Source of the DNA: Chloropicon primus
Lineage: Eukaryota
Direction of reading: 5' to 3'
Assembly: GCA_023205875.1 (NCBI GenBank)
Contig: CP060763.1
Span: 62,001 to 126,000, forward strand
DNA length: 64,000 nt
Shown here piece by piece: positions 26,601 through 50,875 of this stretch (the stretch's first letter is position 1; every line of letters starts with the position of its first letter). The notes under the pieces are model-generated. The model was given only the letters and a program-made list of their open reading frames with translations, was not told the DNA's origin and searched no databases. The translations under genes were made by a program, and so were the position numbers.

Positions 26601-29600
26601 GTCTGGTGGTCAAGCAGCATCTGCCCGCGGTGGTGACATTGAATTCAACACAGGATACAGTGCGTCCACCAACAGTGGTTCCGATGAGAATGAGCACCGT
26701 TGACTCTGGTTCTTCTGGTGTGAGTGGGTCCATGTCTCTCAGGACGGGCAAGACCACATCTGGAGAGTCTGGATTTATTGCTCTTGAGACTGGTGAGGGT
26801 GTCGGAGGTTCTGGTGGCGACCTTCGTTTCAAGGTTGGTACCGGTAACTCTGGCCATGGCGGTGATATCCTTTTCAGGGCAGGTGAGACCACCGATGCTG
26901 ACTCTGCTGGAGGTAATATTGCACTCACTGGTGGCGAAGGCTCAGATGGTCTGTCTGCGTATGGTGGTCGTGGTGGAGAAATTATTGTGAATGGAGGCGA
27001 AGCGTTTGGACTCAATAGCGAAACCGATATTGGAGGCGACATCCATATTTCTGGTGGTCAAGCCTCCTCTGCCCGTGGTGGTGACATTGAGGTGAGCACA
27101 GGATACAGTGAGTCCACCAACAGTGGCTCCATGAGATTGAGCACCGTTGACTCTGGTTCCTCTGGTGTGAGCGGATCCATGTCCCTTTACACGGGCAAGA
27201 CCACTGCCGGCACGTCTGGCTTGATTGAGCTTGAGACTGGTGAAGGTGTCGGAGGCTCTGGTGGCGATGTCCACGTTTCAGTTGGTGCTGGAGACTTTGG
27301 AGATGGCGGTGAGATCAAGCTTACTGCAGGATCCACTGTCCACGATGGTTCCACTGGAGGAAAGATCACCCTCCACGCAGGAGCTGGCGAGAATGAAGAA
27401 GCTGGCCCCTTGGGCATCTCTGGTGGCGACATTGAGTTGATTGCCGGAGAAGCTTTTTACGGACTGGGTGGCACCAATGATTTTGGTGGTAATATCCTTG
27501 TGTCTGGTGGTGAGTCTGAGATGGGCATTGGTGGCAACATAGAGTTGAAGAGTGGTTACGGTGTTGCCCAGACTAGTGGTCAAATCGACATCCACACGGC
27601 TGATGCTGGTTTGTCTGGTGTAAGTGGTCTTATGAGCATGAGCACCGGCAACACCACCAATGGCGATTCTGGCGTAGTCGATGTGAGCACAGGCAGTGCC
27701 ATCAATGGTGCTGGAGGTCACATCGCTGCGAGCGTTGGAACAGGCAACAAGGGCAATGGAGGCGATGTGTATGTCCGTGCCGGTGAGACCACTGATGCGG
27801 CATCTTCCGGCGGCAACATTAAGTTAGTCGGCGGCGCGGGTAGCAGCACTGCTCACACCGGTGGTGGTGTTGGCGGCGACATCTTGTTGACCGGTGGCGA
27901 GGCCCTTGGCTCTAATGACCAGACTGACGTGGGTGGTGATATCTACTTGTCTGGTGGTCAAGCGTCCTCTGCCCGCGGCGGGGACGTTGAGGTGAGCACA
28001 GGATACAGTGAGTCCACCAACAGTGGCTCCATGAGAATGAGCACCGTTGACTCTGGTTCTTCTGGTGTGAGCGGATCCATGTCGCTCAGGACGGGCAAGA
28101 CCACATCAGGAGAGTCTGGCTTGATTGAGCTTGAGACTGGTGAAGGCGATGGAGGCTCTGGTGGTGATCTTCGTTTCAAGGTTGGTACCGGTAACTTTGG
28201 TGACGGTGGTGATATCCTGTTCAGGGCAGGTGAGACCACCGATGCTGACTCTGCTGGTGGCAAGATTGCCCTTAACGGTGGCAAGGGAATTGATGATTCC
28301 TCCTCTCATGGTGGTGTTGGTGGAGACATCTTGTTGACTGGTGGCGAGGCCCTTGGCAATGATGACCAGCATGACGTGGGTGGTGACATCTACTTGTCTG
28401 GTGGTCAGGCAGCCTCTGCCCGCGGTGGTGATATCGAATTCAACACTGGTTACAGTGAATCCACGGACAGTGGCTCCATGCGATTGAGCACCGTTGACTC
28501 TGGTTCTTCTGGTGTGAGCGGATCCATGTCCCTTTACACGGGCAAGACCACTGCCGGCACGTCTGGCTTGATTGAGCTTGAGTCTGGTGAAGGCGATGGA
28601 GGCTCTGGTGGTGACCTTCGTTTCAAGGTTGGTACCGGTAACTCTGGCCATGGCGGTGATATCCTGTTTAGGGCAGGTGAGACCACCGATGCTGACTCTG
28701 CTGGAGGTAATATTGCACTCACTGGTGGCGAAGGCTCAGATGGTCTGTCTGCGTATGGTGGTCGTGGTGGAGAAATAATTTTGACTGGTGGTGTTGCTGC
28801 TGGTCAAAATTCTGATACTGATACTGGAGGTGATATCTTGGTTGCTGGTGGTCAGGCAGCCTCTGCCCGCGGTGGTGATCTTGACATGCGCACTGGATAC
28901 AGTGAGTCCACGGACAGTGGTTCCATGAGATTGAGCACTGTCAACGCTGGTTCTTCTGGTGTGAGTGGATCCATGTCTCTCAGGACGGGGAAGACCACAT
29001 CTGGAGAGTCTGGTGTGATTGAGCTTGAGACTGGTGAGGGTGTTGACGGTTCTGGTGGCGACCTTCGTTTCAAGGTTGGTACCGGTAACTCTGGTGACGG
29101 TGGTGACATCCTGTTTAGGGCAGGTGAGACCACCGATGCTGACTCCGCTGGTGGCAAGATTGCACTTAGTGGAGGCATGGGTTCTGATGATTCCTCCTCT
29201 CATGGTGGAGTTGGTGGAGACATCTTGTTGACTGGTGGCGAGGCCCTCGGTAATGATGACCAGCATGACGTGGGTGGTGACATCTACTTGTCTGGTGGTC
29301 AGGCAGCCTCTGCCCGCGGTGGTGATCTCGAATTCAACACTGGTTACAGTGAGTCCACCAACAGTGGCTCCATGAGAATGAGCACCGTTGACTCTGGTTC
29401 TTCTGGTGTGAGTGGATCCATGTCTCTCAGGACGGGCAACACCACATCAGGAAAATCTGGCTTGATATCTGTTGAGACTGGTGAGGGTGTTGATGGTTCT
29501 GGTGGCGACCTTCGTTTCAAGGTTGGTACCGGTAACTCTGGTGACGGTGGTGACATCCTGTTTAGGGCAGGTGAGACCACCGATGCTGACTCTGCTGGTG

Positions 29601-32600
29601 GCAAGATTGCACTTAGTGGAGGCAAGGGCTCTGATGATTCCTCTGATCATGGTGGTGTTGGTGGAGACATCTTGCTGACTGGTGGCGAGGCCCTCGGCAA
29701 TGATGACCAGCATGACGTGGGTGGTGACATCTACTTGTCTGGTGGTCAGGCGTCCTCTGCCCGCGGTGGTGATCTCGAATTCAACACTGGTTACAGTGAA
29801 TCCACCAACAGTGGCTCCATGCGATTGACTACTGTGAATTCTGGTTCTTCTGGTGTGAGTGGCAATATCAGTATATCAACTGGCAACACCACATCAGGAG
29901 AGTCTGGATTTATTGCTCTTGAGACTGGTGAGGGCGTTGATGGTTCTGGTGGCGACCTTCGTTTCAAGGTTGGTACCGGTAACTTTGGTGACGGCGGTGA
30001 TATCCTGTTCAGGGCAGGTGAGACCACCGATGCTGACTCTGCTGGTGGCAAGATTGCACTTAGTGGAGGCAAGGGAACTGATGATTCCTCCGCTCATGGT
30101 GGTGTTGGTGGAGACATCTTGTTGACTGGTGGTGAGGCCCTCGGCAATGATGACCAGCATGACGTGGGTGGTGACATCTACTTGTCTGGTGGTCAGGCAG
30201 CCTCTGCCCGCGGTGGTGATATCGAATTCAAAACTGGTTACAGTGAATCCACCAACAGTGGCTCCATACGATTGAGCACCGTTGACTCTGGTTCTTCTGG
30301 TGTGAGTGGCAATATCAGTATATCAACTGGCAAAACCACATCTGGAGAGTCTGGTGCGATTGAGCTGGAGACTGGTGAGGGTGTTGACGGTTCTGGTGGT
30401 GACCTTCGTTTCAAGGTTGGTACCGGTAACTCTGATGACGGTGGTGATATCCTGTTCAGGGCAGGTGAGACCACTGATGCTGACTCTGCTGGTGGTATGA
30501 TTGAACTCATTGGCGGAAAGGGTTTTGACGACACTGGAGATTCCTCAAGCGGTTCTAGTGACGCAGAGCCATGGATCGAGGTTACTGATTTCTTTGACAT
30601 GTACTTTGGGACCTGTGACCACAATGTAGCTGGAAGCACAATGTTGTATGAGGATGACCCCCATGATGGTTGCACTTCTGCAGAATTCTGCTTGGACTAC
30701 TGTGCAACAAATTATCCGGCTACAACACATGTTGACTACTACTTGAAATGGAGTTTCTCTGATACTCAGTGTGGTTGCAGATGTTACGATGGATGCGCGT
30801 CTCACACTATCAAGCATAATCGAGCACTTGAGGTTTACCAAAGGAATCCGGACTACACATCAGGCCCAAGTCATGGTGGTCGTGGTGGTAAGATTCGGAT
30901 TGGAGGTGGTGAAGCTCGTGGATCCAACAACCAGACTGACGTGGGTGGTGACATCTACTTGTCTGGTGGTCAGGCAGCCTCTGCCCGCGGTGGTGACGTT
31001 GAGGTAAGCACTGGATACAGTGAGTCCACCAACAGTGGTTCCATGAGAATGAGCACCGTCGACTCTGGTTTTTACGGTGTGAGTGGATCCATGTCTCTCA
31101 GGACGGGCAACACCACAAACGGAGAGTCTGGCTTGATTGAGCTTGAGACTGGTGAGGGTGTCGGAGGCTCTGGTGGCGACCTTCGTTTCAAGGTTGGTAC
31201 CGGTAACTCTGGTGACGGTGGTGATGTTCTTATTGCTGCCGGTGAGACCACATCCAATTCTGCTGTCGGAGGTAGAGTTTCTGTGGTTTCTGGTGCTGCT
31301 TCTGATGGAGCTGGTGGAGACATTTCTCTGAGAGTTGGTCTTGGAAATAGTGGCAAAGGTGGTGATGTTCTTATTGCTGCTGGAGAGACCACTGATGACG
31401 ACTCTGCTGGTGGCAAGATTGCACTCACTGGAGGCAAGGGCTCTGATGATTCCTCTGATCATGGTGGTGTTGGTGGAGACATCTTGTTGACTGGTGGCGA
31501 GGCCCTCGGCAATGATGACCAGCATGACGTGGGTGGTGACATCTACTTGTCTGGTGGTCAGGCAGCCTCTGCCCGCGGCGGTGACATTCATTTGTCTGGA
31601 GGTCAAGGTGCCCTTTCCCGCGGTGGTGATCTTGACATTCGCACTGGATACAGTGAGTCCACCAACAGTGGCTCCATGAGATTGAGCACCGTTGACTCTG
31701 GTTCTTCTGGTGTGAGTGGATCCATGTCTCTCAGGACGGGTAACACCACATCAGGAGAGTCTGGTGCGATTGCTCTTGAGACTGGTCAAGGTGATGGAGG
31801 TTCTGGTGGCGACCTTCGTTTCAAGGTTGGTACCGGTAATTCTGGTGACGGTGGTGACATCCTGTTTAGGGCAGGTGAGACCACCGATGCTGACTCTGCT
31901 GGTGGCAAGATTGCACTTAGTGGAGGCAAGGGTTCTGATGATTCCTCCGCTCATGGTGGTGTTGGTGGAGACATCTTGTTGACTGGTGGTGAGGCCCTCG
32001 GCAATGATGACCAGCATGACGTGGGTGGCGACATCTACTTGTCTGGTGGTCAGGCGTCCTCTGCCCGCGGTGGTGACATTGAATTCAACACAGGATACAG
32101 TCAATCCACGGACAGTGGTTCCATGCGATTGAGCACCGTTGACTCTGGTTCTTCTGGTGTGAGTGGATCCATGTCTCTCAGAACGGGCAACACCACAAAC
32201 GGAGAGTCTGGTGTGATTGAGCTTGAGACTGGTGAGGGCGTTGATGGTTCTGGTGGCGACCTTCGTTTCAAGGTTGGTACCGGTAACTCTGGTGACGGTG
32301 GTGACATCCTGTTCAGGGCAGGTGAGACCACTGATGCTGACTCTGCTGGTGGCAAGATTGCACTTAGTGGAGGCAAGGGAACTGATGATTCATCTCCTCA
32401 TGGTGGAGTTGGTGGAGACATCTTGTTGACTGGTGGCGAGGCCCTCGGCAATGATGACCAGCATGACGTGGGTGGCGACATCTACTTGTCTGGTGGTCAA
32501 GCAGCATCTGCCCGCGGTGGTGATATCGAATTCAACACTGGTTACAGTGAGTCCACCAACAGTGGCTCCATGCGATTGAGCACCGTTGACTCTGGTTCTT

Positions 32601-35600
32601 CTGGTGTGAGTGGATCCATGTCTCTCAGGACGGGCAACACCACATCAGGAAAATCTGGCTTGGTATCTGTTGAGACTGGTGAGGGTGTTGATGGTTCTGG
32701 TGGCGACCTTCGTTTCAAGGTTGGTACCGGTAACTCTGGTGACGGTGGTGACATCCTGTTCAGGGCAGGTGAGACCACCGATGCTGACTCTGCTGGTGGC
32801 AAGATTGCACTTAGTGGAGGCATGGGTTCTGATGATTCCTCCTCTCATGGTGGTGTTGGTGGAGACATCTTGTTGACTGGTGGTGAGGCCCTCGGCAATG
32901 ATAATCAGACTGACGTGGGTGGCGACATCTACTTGTCTGGTGGTCAAGCAGCATCTGCCCGCGGTGGTGATATCGAATTCAACACTGGTTACAGTGAGTC
33001 CACCAACAGTGGTTCCATGAGATTGAGCACCGTTGACTCTGGTTTTTACGGTGTGAGCGGATCCATGTCTCTCAGGACGGGCAAGAGTACAAACGGAGAG
33101 TCTGGCTTGATTGAGCTTGAGACTGGTGAGGGTGTCGGAGGTTCTGGTGGTGACCTTCGTTTCAAGGTTGGTACCGGTAACTCTGGTGACGGTGGTGATG
33201 TTCTTATTGCTGCCGGTGAGACCACATCCAATTCTGCTGTCGGAGGTAGAGTTTCTGTGGTTTCTGGTGCTGCTTCTGATGGAGCTGGTGGAGACATTTC
33301 TCTGAGAGTTGGTCTTGGAAATAGTGGCAAAGGTGGTGATGTTCTTATTGCTGCTGGAGAGACTACGGATTCAGATTCCACAGGAGGTAACGTCGTTCTT
33401 GAAGGAGGAATGGGAAGCAGTGACGATGGAGTAGGAGGTGGAGTTGGTGGCGACCTCTCCTTTACAGGTGGTGACGCTCTTGGTGCTGCTGGTGCTTCTG
33501 ATGATGGTGGCGACATATCATTGACTGGAGGTCAAGCAGCTGCAGCCAAGGGTGGTTCCATTTCAATCATGAGTGGATATAGTCAATCTTCTACAAGTGG
33601 TGGAATTTTGATTGGAACTGACAATGCTGGCGTGTCTGGTGTGAGTGGATCCATGTCCCTATCGACAGGAAATGCTACTGCTGGAATGTCGGGCAAGATT
33701 GAGATTGAGACCGGTGAGGGTGTTGGAGGCTCTGGTGGCGACATTAGCTTCGCTGTTGGCACTGGTAATCTCGGTGATGGTGGTGGAGTGTACGTGACTG
33801 CTGGAGAGTCCACAGACTCTCGCAGTCAGGGTGGCAATATCACTATGACAGCTGGCCGCGGATCAGGTAACAGTGTGACCGGAGGTGACATTGTGCTGAC
33901 TGCCGGTGAGTCTCATAATGAAAACTCTTCTGCAGATCAAAGCGAGATGTATGGCGGATCTGTTTACATTCAGAGTGGACACAGCACTGGAATCACGAGC
34001 GGTGACGTTAGTATCAGCACAGACAACGCAGGCGTTTCCGGTGTGAGCGGATCCATGTCCCTTTACACGGGCAAGACCACTGCCGGCACGTCTGGCTTGA
34101 TTGAGCTTGAGACTGGTGAAGGTGTCGGAGGCTCTGGTGGCGATGTCCACGTTTCAGTTGGTGCTGGAGACTTTGGAGATGGCGGTGAGATCAAGCTTAC
34201 TGCAGGATCCACTGTCCACGATGGTTCCACTGGAGGAAAGATCACCCTCCACGCAGGAGCTGGCGAGAATGAAGAAGCTGGCCCCTTGGGCATCTCTGGT
34301 GGCGACATTGAGTTGATTGCCGGAGAAGCTTTTTACGGACTGGGTGGCACCAATGATTTTGGTGGTAATATCCTTGTGTCTGGTGGTGAGTCTGAGATGG
34401 GCATTGGTGGCAACATAGAGTTGAAGAGTGGTTACGGTGTTGCCCAGACTAGTGGTCAAATCGACATCCACACGGCTGATGCTGGTTTGTCTGGTGTAAG
34501 TGGTCTTATGAGCATGAGCACCGGCAACACCACCAATGGAGATTCTGGCGTAGTCGATGTGAGCACAGGCAGTGCCATCAATGGTGCTGGAGGTCACATC
34601 GCTGCGAGCGTTGGAACAGGCAACAAGGGCAATGGAGGCGATGTGTATGTCCGTGCCGGTGAGACCACTGATGCGGCATCTTCCGGCGGCAACATTAAGT
34701 TAGTCGGCGGCATGGGTAGCAGCACTGCTCACACCGGTGGCGGTGTTGGCGGCGACATCTTGTTGACCGGTGGCGAGGCCCTTGGCTCTAATGACCAGAC
34801 TGACGTGGGTGGTGATATCTACTTGTCTGGTGGTCAAGCCTCCACTGCCCGCGGCGGGGACGTTGAAGTGAGCACAGGATACAGTGAGTCCACCAACAGT
34901 GGCTCCATGAGATTGAGCACCGTTGACTCTGGTTCCTCTGGTGTGAGCGGATCCATGTCCCTTTACACGGGCAAGACCACTGCCGGCACGTCTGGCTTGA
35001 TTGAGCTTGAGACTGGTGAAGGTGTCGGAGGCTCTGGTGGCGATGTCCACGTTTCAGTTGGTGCTGGAGACTTTGGAGATGGCGGTGAGATCAAGCTTAC
35101 TGCAGGATCCACTGTCCACGATGGTTCCACTGGAGGAAAGATCACCCTCCACGCAGGAGCTGGCGAGAATGAAGAAGCTGGCCCCTTGGGCATCTCTGGT
35201 GGCGACATTGAGTTGATTGCCGGAGAAGCTTTTTACGGACTGGGTGGCACCAATGATTTTGGTGGTAATATCCTTGTGTCTGGTGGTGAGTCTGAGATGG
35301 GCATTGGTGGCAACATAGAGTTGAAGAGTGGTTACGGTGTTGCCCAGACTAGTGGTCAAATCGACATCCACACGGCTGATGCTGGTTTGTCTGGTGTAAG
35401 TGGTCTTATGAGCATGAGCACCGGCAACACCACCAATGGCGATTCTGGCGTAGTCGATGTGAGCACAGGCAGTGCCATCAATGGTGCTGGAGGTCACATC
35501 GCTGCGAGCGTTGGAACAGGCAACAAGGGCAATGGAGGCGATGTGTATGTCCGTGCCGGTGAGACCACTGATGCGGCATCTTCCGGCGGCAACATTAAGT

Positions 35601-38600
35601 TAGTCGGCGGCATGGGTAGCAGCACTGCTCACACCGGTGGCGGTGTTGGCGGCGACATCTTGTTGACCGGTGGCGAGGCCCTTGGCTCTAATGACCAGAC
35701 TGACGTGGGTGGTGATATCTACTTGTCTGGTGGTCAAGCCTCCACTGCCCGCGGCGGGGACGTTGAAGTGAGCACAGGATACAGTGAGTCCACCAACAGT
35801 GGCTCCATGAGATTGAGCACCGTTGACTCTGGTTCTTCTGGTGTGAGCGGATCCATGTCTCTCAGGACGGGCGACACCACATCAGGAGAGTCTGGCTTGA
35901 TTGAGCTTGAGACTGGTGAGGGTGTTGATGGTTCTGGTGGTGACCTTCGTTTCAAGGTTGGTACCGGTAACTCTGGTGACGGTGGTGACATCCTGTTCAG
36001 GGCAGGTGAGACCACCGATGCTGACTCTGCTGGTGGCAAGATTGCACTTAGTGGAGGCAAGGGCTCTAGTGATCACACTTATCATGGTGGAGTTGGTGGA
36101 GACATCTTGTTGACTGGTGGTGAGGCCCTCGGCAATGATGACCAGCATGACGTGGGTGGTGACATCTACTTGTCTGGTGGTCAGGCGTCCTCTGCCCGCG
36201 GTGGTGATATCGAATTCAAAACTGGTTACAGTGAGTCCACCAACAGTGGCTCCATGAGATTGAGCACCGTTGATTCTGGTTCTTCTGGTGTGAGCGGATC
36301 CATGTCTCTCAGGACGGGCGGCACCACATCAGGAGAGTCTGGTGCGATTGAACTTAACACTGGTGAGGGTGTTGATGGTTCTGGTGGTGACCTTCGTTTC
36401 AAGGTTGGTACCGGTAACTCTGGTGACGGTGGTGATATCTTGTTCAGGGCAGGTGAGACCACCGATGCTGACTCTGCTGGTGGCAAGATTGCACTTAGTG
36501 GAGGCAAGGGCTCTAGTGATCACACTTATCATGGTGGAGTTGGTGGAGACATCTTGTTGACTGGTGGTGAGGCCCTCGGCAATGATGACCAGCATGACGT
36601 GGGTGGTGACATCTACTTGTCTGGTGGTCAGGCAGCCTCTGCCCGCGGTGGTGATATCGAATTCAAAACTGGTTACAGTGAGTCCACCAACAGTGGCTCC
36701 ATGAGAATGAGCACCGTTGACTCTGGTTCTTCTGGTGTGAGCGGATCCATGTCTCTCAGGACGGGCAACACCTCATCAGGAGAGTCTGGTGCGATTGAAC
36801 TTGAGACTGGTGAGGGTGTTGACGGTTCTGGTGGCGACCTTCGTTTCAAGGTTGGTACCGGTAACTCTGGTGACGGTGGTGACATCCTGTTCAGGGCAGG
36901 TGAGACCACGGATGCTAGACTCTGCTGGTGGCAAGATTGCACTTAGTGGAGGCAAGGGTTCTGATGAGTCCTCCTCTCATGGTGGTGTTGGTGGAGACAT
37001 CTTGTTGACTGGTGGCGAGGCCCTCGGCAATGATGACCAGCATGACGTGGGTGGTGACATCTACTTGTCTGGTGGTCAAGCAGCCTCTGCCCGCGGTGGT
37101 GACATTGAATTCAACACAGGATACAGTCAATCCACGGACAGTGGTTCCATGAGATTGAGCACCGTTGACTCTGGTTCTTCTGGTGTGAGCGGATCCATGT
37201 CTCTCAGGACGGGCAACACCACATCAGGAGAGTCTGGTGCGATTGAGCTTGAGACTGGTGAGGGTGTTGACGGTTCTGGTGGTGACCTTCGTTTCAAGGT
37301 TGGTACCGGTAACTCTGGTGACGGTGGTGACATCCTGTTCAGGGCAGGTGAGACCACCGATGCTGACTCTGCTGGTGGCAAGATTGCACTTAGTGGAGGC
37401 AAGGGTTCTGATGATTCCTCCTCTCATGGTGGAGTTGGTGGAGACATCTTGTTGACTGGTGGCGAGGCCCTCGGCAATGATGACCAGCATGACGTGGGTG
37501 GTGACATCTACTTGTCTGGTGGTCAGGCGTCCTCTGCCCGCGGTGGTGATATCGAATTCAACACAGGATACAGTCAATCCACGGACAGTGGTTCCATGCG
37601 ATTGAGCACCGTTGACTCTGGTTCCTCTGGTGTGAGTGGCAATATCAGTATATCAACTGGCAACACCACATCAGGAGAGTCTGGCTTAATTGAGCTTGAG
37701 ACTGGTGAGGGTGTTGATGGTTCTGGTGGTGACCTTCGTTTCAAGGTTGGTACCGGTAACTCTGGTGACGGTGGTGACATCCTGTTCAGGGCAGGTGAGA
37801 CCACCGATGCTGACTCTGCTGGTGGCAAGATTGCACTTAGTGGAGGCAAGGGCTCTAGTGATCACACTTATCATGGTGGTGTTGGTGGAGACATCTTGTT
37901 GACTGGTGGCGAGGCCCTTGGCAATGATGACCAGCATGACGTTGGTGGTGACATCTACTTGTCTGGTGGTCAGGCGTCCTCTGCCCGCGGTGGTGACATT
38001 GAATTCAACACAGGATACAGTGAGTCCACGGACAGTGGCTCCATGCGATTGAGCACCGTTGACTCTGGTTCTTCTGGTGTGAGTGGCAATATCAGTATAT
38101 CAACTGGCAACACCACATCAGGAGAGTCTGGTGCGATTGAGCTTGAGACTGGTGAGGGTGTTGATGGTTCTGGTGGTGACCTTCGTTTCAAGGTTGGTAC
38201 CGGTAACTCTGGTGACGGTGGTGACATCCTGTTCAGGGCAGGTGAGACCACCGATGCTGACTCTGCTGGTGGCAAGATTGCACTTAGTGGAGGCAAGGGC
38301 TCTAGTAATCACACTTATCGTGGTGGTGTTGGTGGAGACATCTTGTTGACTGGTGGCGAGGCCCTCGGCAATGATGATCAGCATGACGTTGGTGGTGACA
38401 TCTACTTGTCTGGTGGTCAGGCACCCTCTGCCCGCGGTGGTGATATCGAATTCAAAACTGGTTACAGTGAGTCCACCAACAGTGGTTCCATGAGATTGAG
38501 CACCGTTGACTCTGGTTCTTCTGGTGTGAGTGGATCTATGTCTCTCAGGACGGGTAACACCACATCAGGAGAGTCTGGTGCGATTGCTCTTGAGACTGGT

Positions 38601-41600
38601 GAGGGTGTTGACGGTTCTGGTGGTGACCTTCGTTTCAAGGTTGGTACCGGTAACTCTGGTGACGGTGGTGACATCCTGTTCAGGGCAGGTGAGACCACGG
38701 ATACGGACTCTGCTGGTGGCAAGATTGCACTTAGTGGAGGCAAGGGCTCTAGTAATCACACTTATCATGGTGGAGTTGGTGGAGACATCTTGTTGACCGG
38801 TGGCGAGGCCCTCGGTAATGATGACCAGCATGACGTGGGTGGTGACATCTACTTGTCTGGTGGTCAGGCAGCCTCTGCCCGCGGTGGTGATCTCGAATTC
38901 AACACAGGATACAGTCAATCCACGGACAGTGGCTCCATGAGAATGAGCACCGTCGACTCTGGTTTTTATGGTGTGAGTGGATCCATGTCTTTCCGGACGG
39001 GCAAGACTACAAACGGAGAGTCTGGTGCGATTGAGCTTGAGACTGGTGAGGGTGTCGGAGGCTCTGGTGGCGACCTTCGTTTCAAGGTTGGTACCGGTAA
39101 CTCTGGTGACGGTGGTGATGTTCTTATTGCTGCCGGTGAGACCACATCCAATTCTGCTGTCGGAGGTAGAGTTTCTGTGGTTTCTGGTGCTGCTTCTGAT
39201 GGAGCTGGTGGAGACATTTCTCTGAGAGTTGGTCTTGGAAATCATGGCAAAGGTGGTGATGTTCTCATTGCTGCTGGAGAGACCACTGATGACGACTCCG
39301 CTGGTGGCAAGATTGCACTTAGTGGAGGCAAGGGCTCTAGTGATCACACTTATCATGGTGGTGTTGGTGGAGACATCTTGTTGACTGGTGGTGAGGCCCT
39401 CGGCAATGATGACCAGCATGACGTGGGTGGTGACATCTACTTGTCTGGTGGTCAGGCAGCCTCTGCCCGCGGCGGTGACATTCATTTGTCTGGAGGTCAA
39501 AGTGCCCTTTCCCGCGGTGGTGACATTGAATTCAAGACTGGATACAGTCAATCCACGGACAGTGGCTCCATGCGATTGAGCACCGTTGACTCTGGTTCTT
39601 CTGGTGTGAGTGGATCCATGTCTCTCAGGACGGGCAACACCTCATCAGGAGAGTCTGGCTTAATTGAGCTTGAGACTGGTCAAGGTGATGGAGGTTCTGG
39701 TGGTGACCTTCGTTTCAAGGTTGGTACCGGTAACTCTGGTGACGGTGGTGATATCCTGTTCAGGGCAGGTGAGACCACCGATGCTGACTCTGCTGGTGGC
39801 AAGATTGCACTTAGTGGAGGCAAGGGCTCTAGTGATCACACTTATCATGGTGGTGTTGGTGGAGACATCGTGTTGACTGGTGGTGAGGCCCTCGGTAATG
39901 ATGACCAGCATGACGTGGGTGGTGATATCTACTTGTCTGGAGGTCAGGCAGCCTCTGCCCGCGGTGGTGACATTGAATTCAAAACTGGTTACAGTGAGTC
40001 CACCAACAGTGGCTCCATGCGATTGAGCACCGTTGACTCTGGTTCTTCTGGTGTGAGTGGATCCATGTCTCTCAGGACGGGTAACACCACATCAGGAGAG
40101 TCTGGTGCGATTGAACTTGAGACTGGTGAGGGTGTTGATGGTTCTGGTGGTGACCTTCGTTTCAAGGTTGGTACCGGTAACTCTGGTGACGGTGGTGACA
40201 TCCTGTTCAGGGCAGGTGAGACCACCGATGCTGACTCTGCTGGTGGCAAGATTGCACTTAGTGGAGGCAAGGGTTCTGATGATTCCTCCGCTCATGGTGG
40301 TGTTGGTGGAGACATCTTGTTGACTGGTGGTGAGGCCCTCGGCAATGATGACCAGCATGACGTGGGTGGTGACATCTACTTGTCTGGTGGTCAGGCAGCC
40401 TCTGCCCGCGGTGGTGACATTGAATTCAAAACTGGTTACAGTGAGTCCACCAACAGTGGATCCATGCGATTGAGCACCGTTGACTCTGGTTCTTCTGGTG
40501 TGAGCGGATCCATGTCTCTTTGGACGGGTAACACCACATCAGGAGAGTCTGGCTTGATTGCTCTTGAGACTGGTGAGGGTGTTGATGGTTCTGGTGGTGA
40601 CCTTCGTTTCAAGGTTGGTACCGGTAACTCTGGTGACGGTGGTGACATCCTGTTCAGGGCAGGTGAGACCACCGATGCTGACTCTGCTGGTGGCAAGATT
40701 GCACTTAGTGGAGGCAAGGGTTCTGATGATTCCTCCTCTCATGGTGGTGTTGGTGGAGACATCGTGTTGACTGGTGGCGAGGCCCTCGGCAAGGATAATC
40801 ATACTGACGTTGGTGGTGACATCTACTTGTCTGGTGGTAAAGCGTCCTCTGCCCGCGGTGGTGATATCGAATTCAACACTGGTTACAGTGAGTCCACCAA
40901 CAGTGGTGCCATGCGATTGAGCACCGTTGACTCTGGTTTTTATGGTGTGAGCGGATCCATGTCTCTCAGGACGGGCAAGACTACAAACGGAGAGTCTGGC
41001 TTGATTGAGCTTGAGACTGGTGAGGGTGTCGGAGGCTCTGGTGGCGACCTTCGTTTCAAGGTTGGTACCGGTAACTCTGGTGACGGTGGTGATGTTCTTA
41101 TTGCTGCCGGTGAGACCACATCCAATTCTGCTGTCGGAGGTAGAGTTTCTGTGGTTTCTGGTGCTGCTTCTGATGGAGCTGGTGGAGACATTTCTCTGAG
41201 AGTTGGTCTTGGAAATAGTGGCAAAGGTGGTGATGTTCTTATTGCTGCTGGAGAGACTACGGATTCAGATTCCACAGGAGGTAACGTCGTTCTTGAAGGA
41301 GGAATGGGAAGCAGTGACGATGGAGTAGGAGGTGGAGTTGGTGGCGACCTCTCCTTTACAGGTGGTGACGCTCTTGGTGCTGCTGGTGCTTCTGATGATG
41401 GTGGCGACATATCATTGACTGGAGGTCAAGCAGCTGCAGCCAAGGGTGGTTCCATTTCAATCATGAGTGGATATAGTCAATCTTCTACAAGTGGTGGAAT
41501 TTTGATTGGAACTGACAATGCTGGCGTGTCTGGTGTGAGTGGATCCATGTCCCTATCGACAGGAAATGCTACTGCTGGAATGTCGGGCAAGATTGAGATT

Positions 41601-44600
41601 GAGACCGGTGAGGGTGTTGGAGGCTCTGGTGGCGACATTAGCTTCGCTGTTGGCACTGGTAATCTCGGTGATGGTGGTGGAGTGTACGTGACTGCTGGAG
41701 AGTCCACAGACTCTCGCAGTCAGGGTGGCAATATCACTATGACAGCTGGCCGCGGATCAGGTAACAGTGTGACCGGAGGTGACATTGTGCTGACTGCCGG
41801 TGAGTCTCATAATGAAAACTCTTCTGCAGATCAAAGCGAGATGTATGGCGGATCTGTTTACATTCAGAGTGGACACAGCACTGGAATCACGAGCGGTGAC
41901 GTTAGTATCAGCACAGACAACGCAGGCGTTTCCGGTGTGAGCGGATCCATGTCCCTTTACACGGGCAAGACCACTGCCGGCACGTCTGGCTTGATTGAGC
42001 TTGAGACTGGTGAAGGTGTCGGAGGCTCTGGTGGCGATGTCCACGTTTCAGTTGGTGCTGGAGACTTTGGAGATGGCGGTGAGATCAAGCTTACTGCAGG
42101 ATCCACTGTCCACGATGGTTCCACTGGAGGAAAGATCACCCTCCACGCAGGAGCTGGCGAGAATGAAGAAGCTGGCCCCTTGGGCATCTCTGGTGGCGAC
42201 ATTGAGTTGATTGCCGGAGAAGCTTTTTACGGACTGGGTGGCACCAATGATTTTGGTGGTAATATCCTTGTGTCTGGTGGTGAGTCTGAGATGGGCATTG
42301 GTGGCAACATAGAGTTGAAGAGTGGTTACGGTGTTGCCCAGACTAGTGGTCAAATCGACATCCACACGGCTGATGCTGGTTTGTCTGGTGTAAGTGGTCT
42401 TATGAGCATGAGCACCGGCAACACCACCAATGGCGATTCTGGCGTAGTCGATGTGAGCACAGGCAGTGCCATCAATGGTGCTGGAGGTCACATCGCTGCG
42501 AGCGTTGGAACAGGCAACAAGGGCAATGGAGGCGATGTGTATGTCCGTGCCGGTGAGACCACTGATGCGGCATCTTCCGGCGGCAACATTAAGTTAGTCG
42601 GCGGCATGGGTAGCAGCACTGCTCACACCGGTGGCGGTGTTGGCGGCGACATCTTGTTGACCGGTGGCGAGGCCCTTGGCTCTAATGACCAGACTGACGT
42701 GGGTGGTGATATCTACTTGTCTGGTGGTCAAGCCTCCACTGCCCGCGGCGGGGACGTTGAAGTGAGCACAGGATACAGTGAGTCCACCAACAGTGGCTCC
42801 ATGAGATTGAGCACCGTTGACTCTGGTTCTTCTGGTGTGAGCGGATCCATGTCCCTTTACACGGGCAAGACCACTGCCGGCACGTCTGGCTTGATTGAGC
42901 TTGTGACTGGTGAAGGTGTCGGAGGCTCTGGTGGCGATGTCCACGTTTCAGTTGGTGCTGGAGACTTTGGAGATGGCGGTGAGATCAAGCTTACTGCAGG
43001 ATCCACTGTCCACGATGGTTCCACTGGAGGAAAGATCACCCTCCACGCAGGAGCTGGCGAGAATGAAGAAGCTGGCCCCTTGGGCATCTCTGGTGGCGAC
43101 ATTGAGTTGATTGCCGGAGAAGCTTTTTACGGACTGGGTGGCACCAATGATTTTGGTGGTAATATCCTTGTGTCTGGTGGTGAGTCTGAGATGGGCATTG
43201 GTGGCAACATAGAGTTGAAGAGTGGTTACGGTGTTGCCCAGACTAGTGGTCAAATCGACATCCACACGGCTGATGCTGGTTTGTCTGGTGTAAGTGGTCT
43301 TATGAGCATGAGCACCGGCAACACCACCAATGGCGATTCTGGCGTAGTCGATGTGAGCACAGGCAGTGCCATCAATGGTGCTGGAGGTCACATCGCTGCG
43401 AGCGTTGGAACAGGCAACAAGGGCAATGGAGGCGATGTGTATGTCCGTGCCGGTGAGACCACTGATGCGGCATCTTCCGGCGGCAACATTAAGTTAGTCG
43501 GCGGCATGGGTAGCAGCACTGCTCACACCGGTGGCGGTGTTGGCGGCGACATCTTGTTGACCGGTGGCGAGGCCCTTGGCTCTAATGACCAGACTGACGT
43601 GGGTGGTGATATCTACTTGTCTGGTGGTCAAGCCTCCTCTGCCCGCGGCGGGGACGTTGAAGTGAGCACAGGATACAGTGAGTCCACCAACAGTGGCTCG
43701 ATGAGATTGAGCACCGTTGACTCTGGTTCTTCTGGTGTGAGCGGATCTATGTTTCTCATGACGGGCAACACCACATCAGGAGAGTCGGGAATGATTGCTC
43801 TTGTGACTGGTGAGGGTGTTGGAGGTTCTGGTGGTGACCTTCGTTTCAAGGTTGGTACCGGTAACTCTGGTGACGGTGGTGATATCCTGTTCATGGCAGG
43901 TGAGACCACTGATGCTGACTCTGCTGGTGGCAAGATTGCACTTAGTGGAGGCAAGGGCTCTAGTGATCACACTTATCATGGTGGTGTTGGTGGAGACATC
44001 GTGTTGATTGGTGGCGAGGCCCTTGGCAATGATGATCAGCATGACGTGGGTGGTGACATCTACTTGTCTGGTGGTCAGGCAGCCTCTGCCCGCGGTGGTG
44101 ATATCGAATTCAAAACTGGTTACAGTGAGTCCACCAACAGTGGCTCCATGAGTTTGAGCACTCAAGAATCGGGTTACACGGGTGTAAGTGGGAATATCAG
44201 TTTAGCAACTGGTCTCGCACATGATGGTGAGTCTGGCTTGATTGAGCTTGAGACTGGTGAGGGTGTCGGAGGCTCTGGTGGCGACCTTCGTTTCAAGGTT
44301 GGTACCGGTAACTCTGGTGATGGTGGTGATGTTCTTATTGCTGCCGGTGAGACCACATCCAATTCTGCTGTCGGAGGTAGAGTTTCTGTGGTTTCTGGTG
44401 CTGCTTCTGATGGAGCTGGTGGAGACATTTCTCTGACAGTTGGTCTTGGAAATAGTGGCAAAGGTGGTGATGTTCTCATTGCTGCTGGAGAAAGCACTGA
44501 TGACGACTCCGCTGGTGGCAAGATTGCACTTAGTGGAGGCAAGGGCTCTAGCAATTCCTCTGATCATGGTGGTGTTGGTGGAGACATCTTGTTGACTGGT

Positions 44601-47600
44601 GGTGAGGCCCTCGGCAATGATGACCAGCATGACGTTGGTGGTGATATCTACTTGTCTGGTGGTCAGGCAGCCTCTGCCCGCGGTGGTGATATCGAATTCA
44701 ACACAGGATACAGTGAGTCCACCAACAGTGGCTCCATGCGATTGAGCACCGTTGACGCTGGTTCTTCTGGTGTGAGTGGATCCATGTCTCTCAAGACAGG
44801 CAGCACGACATCAGGAGAGTCTGGTGCGATTGCTCTTGAGACTGGTGAGGGTGTTGACGGTTCTGGTGGTGACCTTCGTTTCAAGGTTGGTACCGGTAAC
44901 TCTGGTGACGGTGGTGATATCCTGTTCAGGGCAGGTGAGACAACTGATGGTAACTCCGCTGGTGGCAAGATTGCACTCACTGGTGGCATGGGCTCTACTG
45001 TTGATGGTGGTGTTGGTGGAGACATCTTGTTGACTGGTGGCGAGGCCCTCGGCTTTGACGACGAGACTGACGTTGGTGGTGACATCTACTTGTCTGGTGG
45101 TCAGGCAGCCTCTGCCCGCGGTGGTGATATCGAATTCAACACAGGATACAGTCAATCCACCAACAGTGGCTCCATGCGATTGAGCACCGTTGACTCTGGT
45201 TCTTCTGGTGTGAGTGGATCCATGTCTCTCAGGACGGGCAACACCACATCAGGAGAGTCTGGCTTAATTGAGCTTGAGACTGGTCAAGGTGATGGAGGTT
45301 CTGGTGGTGACCTTCGTTTCAAGGTTGGTACCGGTAACTCTGGTGACGGTGGTGACATCCTGTTCAGGGCAGGTGAGACCACGGATATAGACTCTGCTGG
45401 TGGCAAGATTGCACTTAGTGGAGGCAAGGGCTCTAGTGATCACACTTATCATGGTGGTGTTGGTGGAGACATCGTGTTGACTGGTGGTGAGGCCCTCGGC
45501 AATGATGACCAGCATGACGTGGGTGGTGACATCTACTTGTCTGGTGGTCAGGCAGCCTCTGCCCGCGGTGGTGACATTGAATTCAAAACTGGATACAGTG
45601 AATTTAGTGACAGTGGCTCCATGCGATTGAGTACTGTCAACGCTGGTGACTATGGTGTGAGTGGCAATATCAGTATATCAACTGGCAACACCACATTAGG
45701 CGAGTCTGGCTTCATCGAGCTTGAGACTGGTCAAGGTGTTGATGGTTCTGGTGGCGACCTTCGTTTCAAAGTTGGTACCGGTAACTCTGATGACGGTGGT
45801 GATATGCTGTTCAGGGCAGGTGAGACTACCGATGCTGACTCTGCTGGTGGCAAGATTGCACTTAGTGGAGGCAAGGGCTCTAGTGATCACACTTATCATG
45901 GTGGTGTTGGTGGAGACATCTTGTTGACTGGTGGCGAGGCCCTCGGCAATGATGACCAGCATGACGTGGGTGGTGACATCTACTTGTCTGGAGGTCAGGC
46001 AGCCTCTGCCCGCGGTGGGGATATGGAATTCAACACAGGATACAGTCAATCCACCAACAGTGGTTCCATGAGATTGAGCACCGTTGACTCTGGTTTCTCT
46101 GGTGTGAGCGGATCCATGTCTCTTAGGACGGGTAACACCACATCAGGAGAGTCTGGCTTGATTGAGCTTGAGACTGGTGAGGGTGTTGGAGGTTCTGGCG
46201 GCGACCTTCGTTTCAAGGCTGGTACCGGTAATTCTGGTGACGGTGGTGACATCCTGTTCAGGGCAGGTGAGACCACCGATGCTGACTCTGCTGGTGGCAA
46301 GATTGCACTTAGTGGAGGCAAGGGCTCTAGTGAGTCCTCCGCTCATGGTGGTGTTGGTGGAGACATCGTGTTGACTGGTGGCGAGGCCCTCGGCAATGAT
46401 GACCATCATGACGTTGGTGGTGACATCTACTTGTCTGGTGGTCAGGCAGCCTCTGCCCGCGGTGGGGATATGGAATTCAACACAGGATACAGTCAATCCA
46501 CGGACAGTGGTTCCATGCGATTGAGCACCGTTGACTCTGGTTCTTCTGGTGTGAGCGGATCCATGTCTCTCAGGACGGGCAACACCACATCAGGAGAGTC
46601 TGGCTTAATTGAGCTTGAGACTGGTGAGGGTGTCGGAGGTTCTGGTGGCGACCTTCGTTTCAAGGTTGGTACCGGTAACTCTGGTGACGGTGGTGATGTT
46701 CTTATTGCTGCCGGTGAGACCACATCCAATTCTGCTGTCGGAGGTAGAGTTTCTGTGGTTTCTGGTGCTGCTTCTGATGGAGCTGGTGGAGACATTTCTC
46801 TGACAGTTGGTCTTGGAAATAGTGGCAAAGGTGGTGATGTTCTTATTGCTGCTGGAGAGACCACTGATGACGACTCCGCTGGTGGCAAGATTGCACTTAG
46901 TGGAGGCAAGGGCTCTAGCAATTCCTCTGATCATGGTGGTGTTGGTGGAGACATCTTGTTGACTGGTGGTGAGGCCCTTGGCAATGATGACCAGCATGAC
47001 GTGGGTGGTGACATCTACTTGTCTGGTGGTCAGGCAGCCTCTGCCCGCGGCGGTGACATTCATTTGTCTGGTGGTCAAGGTGCCCTTTCCCGCGGTGGTG
47101 ACATTGAATTCAAAACTGGATACAGTCAATCCACCAACAGTGGTTCCATGCGATTGAGTACTGTCAACGCTGGTCAATATGGTGTGAGTGGATCCATGTC
47201 TCTTAGGACGGGTAACACCACATCAGGAGAGTCTGGCTTGATTGAGCTTGAGACTGGTAAGGGTGTCGGAGGCTCTGGTGGCGACCTTCGTTTCAAGGTT
47301 GGTACCGGTAACTCTGGTGACGGTGGTGACATCCTGTTCAGGGCAGGTGAGACCACCGATGCTGACTCTGCTGGTGGCAAGATTGCACTTAGTGGAGGCA
47401 AGGGTTCTGATGAGTCCTCCGCTCATGGTGGTGTTGGTGGAGACATCTTGTTGACTGGTGGCGAGGCCCTCGGCAATGATGACCATCATGACGTGGGTGG
47501 TGACATCTACTTGTCTGGTGGTCAGGCAGCCTCTGCCCACGGTGGGGATATGGAATTCAACACAGGATACAGTCAATCCACGGACAGTGGCTCCATGCGA

Positions 47601-49361
47601 TTGAGCACCGTTGACTCTGGTTCTTCTGGTGTGAGTGGATCCATGTCTCTCAGGACGGGCAACACCACATCAGGAGAGTCTGGCTTGATTACTCTTGAGA
47701 CTGGTGAGGGTGTTGGAGGTTCTGGTGGCGACCTTCGTTTCAAGGTTGGTACCGGTAACTCTGGTGACGGTGGTGACATCCTGTTCAGGGCAGGTGAGAC
47801 TACCGATGCTGACTCTGCTGGTGGCAAGATTGCACTTAGTGGAGGCAAGGGCTCTAGTGATCACACTTATCATGGTGGTGTTGGTGGAGACATCGTGTTG
47901 ACTGGTGGTGAGGCCCTCGGCAATGATGATCAGCATGACGTTGGTGGTGACATCTACTTGTCTGGTGGTCAGGCAGCCTCTGCCCGCGGTGGGGATATGG
48001 AATTCAACACTGGATACAGTGAGTCCACCAACAGTGGCTCCATGCGATTGAACACTGTTGACTCTGGTTCTTCTGGTGTGAGTGGATCCATGTCTCTCAA
48101 GACAGGCAGCACGACATCAGGAGAGTCTGGCTTGATTGCTCTTGAGACTGGTGAGGGTGTTGACGGTTCTGGTGGTGACCTTCGTTTCAAGGTTGGTACC
48201 GGTAACTCTGGTGACGGTGGTGACATCCTGTTTAGGGCAGGTGAGACCACCGATGCTGACTCTGCTGGTGGTAAGATTGCACTTAGTGGAGGCAAGGGCT
48301 CTAGCAATTCCTCTGATCATGGTGGTGTTGGTGGAGACATCTTGTTGACTGGTGGTGAGGCCCTCGGCAATGATGACCAGCATGACGTGGGTGGTGATAT
48401 CTACTTGTCTGGTGGTCAGGCAGCCTCTGCCCGCGGTGGTGATATCGAATTCAACACAGGATACAGTGAGTCCACCAACAGTGGCTCCATGCGATTGAAC
48501 ACTGTTGACTCTGGTTCTTCTGGTGTGAGTGGATCCATGTCTCTCAAGACAGGCAGCACGACATCAGGAGAGTCTGGTGCGATTGAGCTTGAGACTGGTG
48601 GTGATTCGCTGATGAGTGGTGATGTTCACTTGTTTTCTGGAGATGTTTACGGTGGAAAGTCAGGTAATGTCGTTTTAGAAACTGGCGAATCTTCTGGCGG
48701 TAGAAGTGGAAGCATACAACTTCTTGCTGGAGTTAGTAGCTATGATAAGGGTGGTGATGTCGAGGTCAATGCAGGGCAATCAACATCAGACAGTGATGGT
48801 GCTGGCGGTGACATTTCCTTGACATCAGGCCGAGGACACAGGGGTGGAAAAGGTGGAGACTTAAATATTGTTGGAGGTATAAGTGGAGAGCTTTATGGAA
48901 GAGGAGGGGACGTTTCAATTGATGGTGGCCACAGTGAAAGTGGAGTGCATGGCCAAGTTCGAATTGGAACAAAGAGTGATGAAGTTTACATGGGTGAAAT
49001 TGACTACTCTTCAGATCTTTTCTTCTATGGGCACAGCTTTGCTTATGGAGCAATGAGTGTTGGAGAAGAAAGAGGTACACCGGTAACAGAGCACTTCTCG
49101 TACATGACGGAAGAAGTTACGATTGGTACTCTGTTGCCTTCTCAATCTGTATCCTTAGTTTTACAGGTTGATGGTGTGAGAGTGGAGGACAATGTGAGTG
49201 TAAACTTCAGTGGTAGACTTGGAGGAAGAATTATAATGTCTTCCTCTATCATTGCAGACGGCGAAGTCGAGATTAATCTGGTGCATTCAGGATCTCCACC
49301 TGTTCCCTATGACATACCTAGCGGTACCTTCAGGGTGAATGTGTTCCAGTATCGCGACTAG
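14623..49361 (+). CDS. Giant intronless putative secreted Gly/Ser/Asp/Thr-rich repeat protein, ~11,578 aa after removing two 1-nt insertions (~26683 and 36917)
   Basis: ORFs of 4058, 3466 and 4190 aa carry the same repeat and switch frame at single extra bases relative to the repeat consensus. (34739-2)/3 = 11579 codons. Signal peptide MAKSLLSGTYALTLCILVLLLSPTKVGA. Unique C-terminal domain ending TFRVNVFQYRD*. Confidence 0.88.
20340..48600 (+). repeat. Intragenic coding tandem repeat: 447-bp/149-aa basic unit, 900-bp modules and a ~7.9-kb higher-order duplication
   Basis: Offsets of homologous ORF-track entries: 447 (20945/21392; 37127/37574), 900 (34063/34963; 41957/42857), 1795 (24929/26724) and 7894 (33046/40940; 34063/41957). 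Confidence 0.97.
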
Positions 49362-50040
49362 ATCGTCTGAGCATGGCGGTGAGCTTTGTTGAGGCCTTGA
49401 TGGTATTTTGGACCGAGATTGGAGACGAGGCCTTGGTGATGCATGTTCCAGGGTCCCCCCTCGTCTCAAACCGACACGTGACTGGATTGCTTCCAGAATG
49501 CAAACACACAGAGGAAGCTTGTGCGACGCCTTTCCCCCATTTTTAAAAGGACTAGCAAAGTTTCTTCGGGCTGGCCTTCGAAGACGTTGTTTCCTTCCTG
49601 TTCCCCCATTTATTTTGGAAGAAGCAGTGGACTCAAAGGCCCAAGCTAGAAGTGCATTTCCTAGCGTGTTTGCGGTGTGAAGAACTGGGTGCTTACAATG
49701 CAGCTCAAGTACATAAGAATGCAGCTCAGCCGGACCATGTGTTTTGCGTATTTTATAGCATTGGCGGCTATCGAGAGAGAGAGAGTCAATGCAGGAAAGA
49801 AAAAAAAGAGAAAAAAAAGAAGCAAACGGGTCATCGTCGTATGACTTATTGTTTGCCTGCAAGTGTAATATAAACTATATCGATTACTATCATTCAATTC
49901 TCCTCTCCTTTTGTCTTGACAGCAAGTGTCATTCGAGGTTCATCGGGATTCATTCGTCAAGAGTAATTTGTATAGTTCTTTCTTTCTCTTCTATTTAGGA
50001 TGACCCTCCAACCTGTTGGTCGATTCATCATAAAAAGAAC

Positions 50041-50838
50041 TTAGGAAGTCTCAGTGGCCTTGAAGGCATCGAGGACGTTAACCTTGAGCACCATGTCAGC
50101 GAACTTGGTCCTTGTGATGCTGCCCTTCTGGATAATCCTTCCAATCCTGGCACTCTCCTTCTCGATGTATCCCTCTCCCTTGGCAATGATCTTAGTCATC
50201 AACAAGTAGTAGGTCTCCCCTTCAAGGTGCTTTTCAGTCTCCGCCTTGGCCTTGTTCAACAAAAACGCCTCCTTGTCATCCGACGCCATGAATTCTTGGG
50301 CAAGCTTGTCGAGGTCCTCGTGCCTTCCAACAAGCTTATCCTGAACGAGAGCGAAGGAAAAACGAGTCCAGGGCATGATACGACGAAGAAAAAGTTGAGT
50401 CAGTACCAAAGCGCAAGCAACGCCAAAGGAGGAGAGGCACGAGCCCCCCCCCATAGTAGTCTGTGAACGAACAAATTCTAGTCACGCACCTGCTCCACAA
50501 AGCCCTTCAACTTTTTGAACATCTCCTCAGCCGTCCTTGGCCCGTTGTAGTCAAATGCAGAGTCAGCCTCCTCGATGCCAATGCCCCTGGAAAGGATCTT
50601 CAAGGTCGGGAAGCCGGTCACACCGAAGGGCTCTCCGAGAGACCTGTGCTTGTCGCAGTCCGCCTTCACAACCTGCACGAAGTTCGCCGTCATCGGATCG
50701 TTCTGAATCATCTCCGCAAGCTTCGTGTACTCGGGGGTCAACCTCTTGCAGTGTCCGCACCACGGAGCGTAGAACTCCGCTATCGTGATCTTCATGCCAT
50801 TCAATACCTCCTTCACGTTCGAAGGATCTAACACAAAA

Positions 50839-50875
<37 letters not shown>

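What the first reader, a model, noticed from the sequence alone, without database searches (positions are those of the whole stretch)
48950..49361. C-terminal domain of the giant protein resembles phage/bacterial tail-fibre tip domains
Seen: GTPVTEHFSYMTEEVTIGTLLPSQSVSLVLQVDGVRVEDNVSVNF...SSSIIADGEVEINLVH...YDIPSGTFRVNV. From memory, and not from a search, this fits a small beta-sandwich pattern (GT.I....D.GSI....VTV.GA.VGD.V.V....VSAANTVTV...D.ASGT.RV.V) found at the C-termini of phage tail and fibre proteins. Together with a Gly-rich shaft, it would suggest a domesticated virus-like fibre architecture fused to a eukaryotic signal peptide.
Basis: inference. Interest (0 to 1): 0.75.

Follow-up and report, generated by a model that had tools for sequence, protein, structure and literature searches.

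The report
Giant algal fibre with phage-type tip
A tiny marine green alga keeps a well-conserved gene for a protein of about 11,600 residues, likely secreted, whose last 90 residues are related to the end-caps of phage tail spikes and bacterial fibre-like proteins, and which is predicted to twist with two copies of itself into a long rod, a prokaryote-style fibre design in a eukaryote.

Summary
Direct Pfam, PHROG, PDB and phage searches with the last 140 residues found nothing. Five distant shaft-plus-tip homologues bridge to an unnamed C-terminal domain of phage tailspikes and fibres (hhalign 92-99%) and of large bacterial proteins. An AlphaFold2 model (pLDDT 90.6) best matches the lectin-like domain of phage KP32 gp38 (Z 9.1), which is required for trimers but does not bind capsule alone (PMC13082707). 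Tip, neck and five shaft units are predicted as a homotrimer with strands stacked between chains (ipSAE 0.91, controls 0.00). The gene is Chloropicon-type, syntenic and under strong purifying selection (tip dN 0.023, dS 1.17). One of its two frameshifts is an assembly error. Best reading: a secreted triple-beta-helix fibre of roughly 300 nm whose tip registers the three chains. 'Domesticated from a phage' is not shown: bacteria carry both modules, trees cannot name a donor, and no prokaryote or virus examined had this shaft fused to this tip.

The parts
14623..14706 (+). Start codon and signal-peptide-like N-terminus (28 residues; inferred)
   Evidence: only hydrophobic 19-residue windows in the three frames; no predictor run
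14707..17295 (+). N-terminal head of about 860 residues, no known family; candidate anchor or functional end
   Evidence: no Pfam hit, one PHROG hit at E 0.37, no phage or PDB match
17296..48938 (+). Glycine-rich shaft of about 600 units of 15-21 residues; from about 20540 a regular 149-residue (9-unit) super-repeat with long internal duplications; predicted triple beta-helix
   Evidence: last five units modelled as inter-chain stacked strands
26681..26683 (+). First frameshift (one extra base), an assembly error
   Evidence: all contig depth over the place lacks one base in two runs of one sample: 1769.7+140.4 of 1910.1 and 3513.6+502.9 of 4016.5
36917..36917 (+). Second frameshift (one extra base), likely an assembly error
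   Evidence: 24 of 25 copies of the repeat motif lack it; not checked against reads
48939..49088 (+). Neck between shaft and tip; predicted inter-chain beta-strands
   Evidence: conserved in all shaft-plus-tip homologues; densest low-error contacts in the trimer model
49089..49361 (+). C-terminal beta-sandwich tip (90 residues) and stop codon; homologue of an unnamed phage/bacterial fibre end-domain, fold like KP32gp38 lectin-like domain

Best explanation
The last 90 residues are a homologue of an unnamed end-domain of phage tailspikes and bacterial fibre-like proteins, and they likely act as the cap that brings three copies of a giant, likely secreted algal protein into register so that its 600 glycine-rich units would wind into a triple beta-helix rod. 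Shown: homology, C-terminal position, native chromosomal setting, purifying selection. Predicted: the beta-sandwich fold and the homotrimer with strands stacked between chains. Inferred: export through the ER; folding that starts at the tip and zips towards the N-terminus; a rod of roughly 300 nm (about 600 rungs at 4.8 A, a recalled strand spacing); display on or in the wall with the 860-residue head as anchor; a job as surface bristle or spacer. Sugar binding by the tip is possible but secondary. The modules come from the pool shared by phages and bacteria and were likely gained once, long ago, by an ancestor of the shaft-plus-tip family; the donor is open.
For: Homology chain: profile of six close sequences finds five distant proteins with the same shaft, neck and tip (5 of 11 hits; 2 were known; the other 4 match by many short stretches in long repetitive proteins); one of them hits 14 phage records at E<=0.01 of 22 listed, best 8e-11; in all 9 records fetched the match ends the protein; hhalign close-only profile vs 9 phage rows 92%, E 5.7e-7, wider profile 98.9%, E 2.6e-17; PHROG 25305 'tail fiber protein' and two unknown PHROGs hit at their C-ends; 115 of 119 non-algal hits have it within 15 residues of the end, 25 of the 120 listed carry PF12708. 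Fold: pLDDT 90.6; KP32gp38 488-578 Z 9.1, rmsd 2.4 A over 86 residues, next discoidin I 6.6, furin 6.2, R1 pyocin tip 6.0; 21 viral models at E<=0.001, the 13 named ones all phage. Function of the best match: needed and sufficient for trimers, no autonomous capsule binding (PMC13082707 abstract, passages, section 14). Trimer: ipSAE 0.91 in three runs, best of 3 controls 0.00, contacts agree >=95%, pLDDT 88; mark reached by 21 of 30 solved homodimers and 0 of 23 monomers; low-error pairs 54-71, 55-72, 56-73, 71-86 link one unit to the next unit of another chain. Viral proteins with the same shaft motif end in S74 chaperone, K1-lyase_C or weak C1q domains (3 of 20 scanned); the shaft profile's best PDB hit is a gp5/VgrG protein, E 0.01. 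Tip dN 0.023 vs dS 1.17, more conserved than the shaft end (dN 0.08).
Against: No direct hit of the window's own tip in Pfam, PHROGs, PDB or phages; the link needs intermediates. The confident model rests on an alignment with 74 of 85 prokaryote/phage-type rows; the single-sequence model was poor (pLDDT 45.8) and Foldseek on PDB gave nothing at E<=0.001 (best 0.033). The trimer pass may be from memory of solved phage trimers; calibration was on two copies and mostly microbes; only 5 of about 600 units were modelled; other copy numbers were not tried. Chloropicon is described with a smooth wall surface (PMC5656628 passages). The second frameshift is unchecked against reads.
Confidence: 0.68

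Rival explanations
1. The tip is mainly a sugar-binding adhesin head (H-type-lectin-like) that grips bacteria, other cells or particles; the shaft is its stalk.
For: Discoidin I, Helix pomatia agglutinin and SLL-2 are among the fold matches (Z 6.6, 5.3, 5.2); H_lectin clusters score 0.85 in the Atlas; Bdellovibrio MAT fibres bind glycans with varied trimeric tips (PMC10769870 passages); invariant C-terminal R, Q, Y are special to the shaft-plus-tip clade.
Against: Lectin matches lie below Z 8 with 6-9% identity; the best match does not bind capsule alone; the tip is nearly frozen between species, unlike a receptor binder under an arms race. A trimer cap and a binding site are not exclusive.
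Confidence: 0.3
2. Origin: the tip and shaft were taken directly from a tailed phage.
For: Most retrieved tips are tailspike-type; both modules exist in viral contigs; one viral protein joins 12 shaft units to the sister tip K1-lyase_C (L025); two short proteins carry two shaft units before this tip (P0089, P0125).
Against: 0 of 39 viral shaft segments carry this tip; 1 of 80 viral tip segments has three motif matches, in what looks like an ordinary beta-helix; the algal clade is not nested among tailspike rows; no viral gene among 23 flanking frames scanned.
Confidence: 0.35
3. Origin: the modules came from bacterial surface fibres (Bacteroidota- or CPR-type), themselves phage-like.
For: 22 matches in 13 of 401 genomes, in frames of 201-3594 residues, all ending within 7 residues of the stop; neck motif in 7 of 21 bacterial rows vs 2 of 25 tailspike rows and 6 of 9 shaft-plus-tip rows; three bacterial rows fall beside the algal clade (SH-aLRT 90, long branch); shaft motif in 32 segments of 47 bacterial loci (some are other repeat types).
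Against: 0 of 32 bacterial shaft segments carry the tip and the bacterial tip proteins show 0-1 shaft units in the 1.5 kb seen; the tree fork is open.
Confidence: 0.35
4. The family is an old eukaryotic inheritance, and prokaryote likeness reflects a very ancient shared fold or transfer the other way.
For: The 11 shaft-plus-tip rows form one side of a branch (99/96, before bacterial rows were added); an Atlas cluster like the shaft is mostly eukaryotic, commonest Oomycota; eukaryotes have same-fold H-type lectins.
Against: The tip is far more diverse and abundant in phages and bacteria; only one named eukaryote was found; the hosts of the five intermediates are unknown.
Confidence: 0.15
5. The gene is a decaying or recently inserted viral remnant, or three separate genes, so the tip is not joined to the signal peptide.
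For: Two frameshifts in the assembly; GC3 of 0.29-0.46 in shaft and tip against 0.73-0.84 in five neighbours; the public relative is annotated as only 319 residues.
Against: First break absent from read contigs; second break is a lone variant among 25 copies; dN/dS about 0.02 and five downstream genes syntenic in L001.
Confidence: 0.06

Closest known systems
Klebsiella phage KP32 gp38 C-terminal lectin-like (LEC) domain (PDB 9qrm; PMC13082707)
   Same: Best fold match (Z 9.1, rmsd 2.4 A, 86 residues); last domain of a trimeric appendage; trimer predicted here.
   Different: 15% identity, no sequence-level hit; follows an enzyme and a CBM, not a 600-unit shaft; virion protein, not secreted.
Unnamed C-terminal domain of phage tailspikes/fibres (PHROG 23388, 19253, 25305 ends; e.g. 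Escherichia phage HSE2 tailspike, Aeromonas phage 4_4512 gp24)
   Same: Homologous by profile; C-terminal in 115 of 119.
   Different: 16-22% identity to the nine phage rows; the PPS loop and Asn motif are altered; partners are mostly beta-helix enzymes; no Pfam model, no solved member by sequence.
Bdellovibrio MAT (mosaic adhesive trimer) fibres (PMC10769870)
   Same: Signal peptide, long intertwined trimeric beta shaft, swappable phage-like C-terminal tip in a cellular organism.
   Different: Bacterial, about 1000 residues and 55 nm, 21 paralogues with varied tips, conserved 130-residue N-domain; no sequence link to MATs was tested here.
H-type lectins (discoidin I, Helix pomatia agglutinin, SLL-2) and K1-lyase_C (PF24146)
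   Same: Similar small beta-sandwich (Z 5.2-6.6; Atlas 0.85-0.88); trimeric by recalled knowledge.
   Different: No Pfam hit to either; sugar site not demonstrated.
gp5/VgrG triple beta-helix
   Same: Shaft profile's best PDB hit (9gtr, E 0.01); inter-chain strand stacking predicted.
   Different: Weak hit; unit is 15-21 residues with long Gly loops; about 600 units.

Membership tests
Unnamed phage/bacterial fibre end-domain (PHROG 23388/19253/25305 C-end) | Profile-level sequence homology above chance | tested here: met
Unnamed phage/bacterial fibre end-domain (PHROG 23388/19253/25305 C-end) | Position at the extreme C-terminus | tested here: met
Unnamed phage/bacterial fibre end-domain (PHROG 23388/19253/25305 C-end) | Same beta-sandwich fold | tested here: met
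   predicted model vs predicted viral models, 21 at E<=0.001; alignment-dependent
Phage tail fibre / tailspike (virion protein) | Encoded in a phage or prophage gene module | tested here: not met
   flanks hold C2/SMP, AlgH-like, NYN, zf-C3HC, ankyrin, kinesin, PsbP genes, syntenic in L001
Phage tail fibre / tailspike (virion protein) | N-terminal virion-attachment domain | tested here: inconclusive
   head has no PHROG, phage or PDB match and starts with a hydrophobic leader
Phage tail fibre / tailspike (virion protein) | Homotrimeric beta-rich shaft with C-terminal cap | tested here: met
   prediction only: ipSAE 0.91, best control 0.00, for the last 219 residues
H-type lectin (PF09458) | Pfam match | tested here: not met
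H-type lectin (PF09458) | Fold | tested here: inconclusive
   Z 5.2-6.6, under the tool's Z 8 guide
H-type lectin (PF09458) | Gal/GalNAc binding between subunits (recalled) | not testable with these tools
   needs a binding assay
Bdellovibrio MAT fibres | Conserved 130-residue beta-rich domain after the signal peptide | not tested
   no MAT sequence was compared
Bdellovibrio MAT fibres | S74 chaperone at the end (13 of 21 MATs) | tested here: not met
   no Pfam hit in the last 253 residues; not required for NS74 MATs

The most novel reading that the evidence does not exclude
Marine picoeukaryotes build a so far undescribed class of extracellular fibre: megadalton triple-beta-helix rods about 300 nm long, assembled from a phage/bacterial shaft repeat and a phage-type trimer cap behind a eukaryotic signal peptide, hidden in databases as short C-terminal fragments; they would form a surface brush that shapes grazing, virus contact or attachment.
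Probability: 0.4. Interest if true: 0.85.

Novelty: new variant of a known kind. Interest (0 to 1): 0.68.

Why it matters
Trimeric beta-helix fibres with swappable tips are known from phages and from bacteria such as Bdellovibrio. A conserved one of about 11,600 residues in an abundant oceanic green alga would extend the design to eukaryotes and give a first candidate for what such picoplankton display outside the wall. It also defines an unnamed, widespread end-domain (no Pfam model) with a testable trimer-cap role, and shows that gene callers reduce the giant gene to a 319-residue fragment. Five literature searches and keyword look-ups in three Chloropicon papers showed no description of this protein; supplements were not read and subscription papers are not covered.

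Tried and rejected
Direct searches of the window's tip: Pfam and PHROGs 0 families; PDB by sequence only chance hits; phage tblastn E 4-6 or none. Single-sequence model pLDDT 45.8, fold search no Z>=5: discarded. Four of 11 hits (P0022, P0023, P0027, P0028) rejected as repeat-driven; three were read, P0028 judged from name and stretch count. Viral-contig scans with A1, A3 and P0030 found no relative; P0029 found 3 tip-only loci. No fusion of this shaft with this tip outside the 11-row clade in the viral and bacterial loci examined; these are samples, not proof of absence. Shaft likeness to viral proteins (18 of 21 above the best shuffle) is partly circular, as they were fetched by the motif. 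The donor could not be fixed by trees (95-99 columns, no root; near-copies and two thirds of tailspike rows left out). Small-share sequencing runs were not used as habitat or expression evidence. The N-terminal head matched nothing. No whole genome is held, so paralogues were not counted. Earlier-scan look-ups by sequence and place were empty.

Full report
Setting. The finding is the end of a 35-kb gene (14623-49361, + strand) lying in three long frames. Each junction is one extra base inside the repeat array. At the first, all contig depth from two runs of one sample lacks the base, so it is an assembly error; at the second, 24 of 25 motif copies lack it, but it was not checked against reads. 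The pieces add up to about 11,575 codons. The closest homologue (94% over the last 140 residues) clusters with a Chloropicon roscoffensis protein annotated at only 319 residues, so the host is taken to be a Chloropicon; the species was not determined. Flanking frames give ordinary eukaryotic families, and five downstream genes keep their order in metagenome locus L001.

Anatomy. A hydrophobic leader, an 860-residue head without any match, a shaft of 616 loose or 530 strict GGx-hydrophobic-x-hydrophobic units mostly 15-21 residues apart and grouped in nines (149 residues), a 50-residue neck and a 90-residue tip. Against L001 the tip has dN 0.023 and dS 1.17, the shaft end and neck dN 0.08: a working gene whose tip is its more constrained part.

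Is the tip phage-like? Not by direct search. The ESM Atlas gave unnamed, mostly viral clusters of about 95 residues at 0.93-0.94, with recognition under its guide value, a lead only. A six-sequence profile against 1.84 billion proteins returned 11 hits: two known, four repeat-driven, and five unnamed proteins of 30-34% identity that have the same shaft, neck and tip. One of these hit 22 phage records, 14 at E<=0.01; in the nine fetched the match is the last domain, in a tailspike, a tail fibre, a tailspike-like protein, five hypothetical proteins (one of 164 residues) and one unannotated frame. Profile comparison gave 92% (close-only) and 98.9% (wider). A joint profile found 235 proteins; of 119 non-algal ones listed, 115 carry the domain at the very end and 14 carry two or three copies. 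Non-algal models rank the window's tip far above shuffles. Viral contigs hold at least 288 relatives. The domain also ends bacterial proteins of up to 3594 residues in 13 of 401 genomes of the phylum of a Kapaibacterium genome ('Bacteroidota' is my recalled label).

Fold and assembly. With 85 aligned rows the model reaches pLDDT 90.6, an all-beta sandwich. Its best solved match is the last domain of phage KP32 gp38 (Z 9.1, rmsd 2.4 A, 86 residues), then discoidin I, furin, pyocin and tailspike tips and snail lectins at Z 5-6.6; Foldseek ranks the same kind of entries first but none at E<=0.001. [quoted passage not shown] The last 219 residues, folded as three copies without alignment, scored 0.91 against 0.00 for the best of three controls, runs agreeing in at least 95% of contacts, pLDDT 88; the mark was reached by 21 of 30 solved pairs and 0 of 23 single chains, on eukaryotes by 17 of 29 and 0 of 30 but only 1 of 7 without an older solved relative, so a pass from memory is possible. 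Contacts run along shaft and neck, and residues 54-56 of one chain pair with 71-73 of another: one unit stacked on the next unit of a neighbour, as in a triple beta-helix. Viral proteins fetched by the shaft motif end in S74, K1-lyase_C or a weak C1q domain (3 of 20 scanned), domains I recall as trimeric.

Mechanism. Most likely the chain is exported, three tips meet and set the register, and the shaft zips into a rod of roughly 300 nm (inferred from about 600 rungs at a recalled 4.8 A). The head would anchor it. A sugar-binding role for the tip remains possible. Against a visible coat: the genus is described with a smooth wall, the sister genus sometimes with fibrils (PMC5656628 passages); expression is untested.

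Origin. Without bacterial rows the 11 shaft-plus-tip sequences form one side of a well-supported branch (99/96); with them, three bacterial rows join in an open fork. Shaft and tip each occur in viruses and bacteria, but their fusion was seen in 0 of 39 viral and 0 of 32 bacterial shaft segments; only two short proteins have two units before the tip. An old gain from the phage-bacteria fibre pool fits best; phage and bacterial donors are equally open, and the hosts of the five intermediates are unknown.

Comparison and verdict. It works like a phage fibre or a Bdellovibrio MAT fibre (PMC10769870 passages) but is not a member of either: no viral context, no S74 domain, MAT N-domain untested. 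The tip is a true member of an unnamed fibre end-domain family. New variant of a known kind, in an unexpected host and at unusual size; no description found in five searches or in passages of PMC6731263 and PMC12301720, whose supplements were not read.

Noticed in passing
window 30930-36462 and 38824-44356: A 5.5-kb internal duplication at 96% identity inside the shaft, with several more of 2.6-4.1 kb: the array grows by large blocks, and its length may vary or be mis-assembled.
   Followed up: partly
P0002 N-terminal part; P0024, P0032, P0045, P0046: Homologues carry a cysteine-rich insert of about 60 residues within the shaft, a short way before the tip; the window's last shaft units have none. 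It suggests disulphide-bonded side domains and a eukaryotic, secreted setting.
   Followed up: no
window 17401-49358: GC3 is 0.29-0.46 in shaft and tip, 0.66 in the head and 0.73-0.84 in five neighbouring genes.
   Followed up: no
L005:1880-2374: In 'Dunaliella viridis virus SI2' (classed Caudoviricetes) the tip domain sits in a 164-residue protein right after a gene that looks like a major capsid protein: possibly a head decoration trimer.
   Followed up: no
L025:4600-7119, L051:5578-9198, L035:3000-9515, L049:3756-7697: An apparently unnamed GGxIxIxxG repeat shaft is common in viral-contig proteins with varied tips; no Pfam model covers it.
   Followed up: partly
L198, L199, L201, L202: Small (about 200 residue) bacterial proteins with a leader-like N-terminus end in a tip variant that groups beside the algal clade on a long branch.
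   Followed up: partly
window 49999-50900 (- strand): A protein-disulphide-isomerase-like gene (my reading of the L001 translation) lies tail-to-tail with the giant gene in both the window and L001.
   Followed up: no
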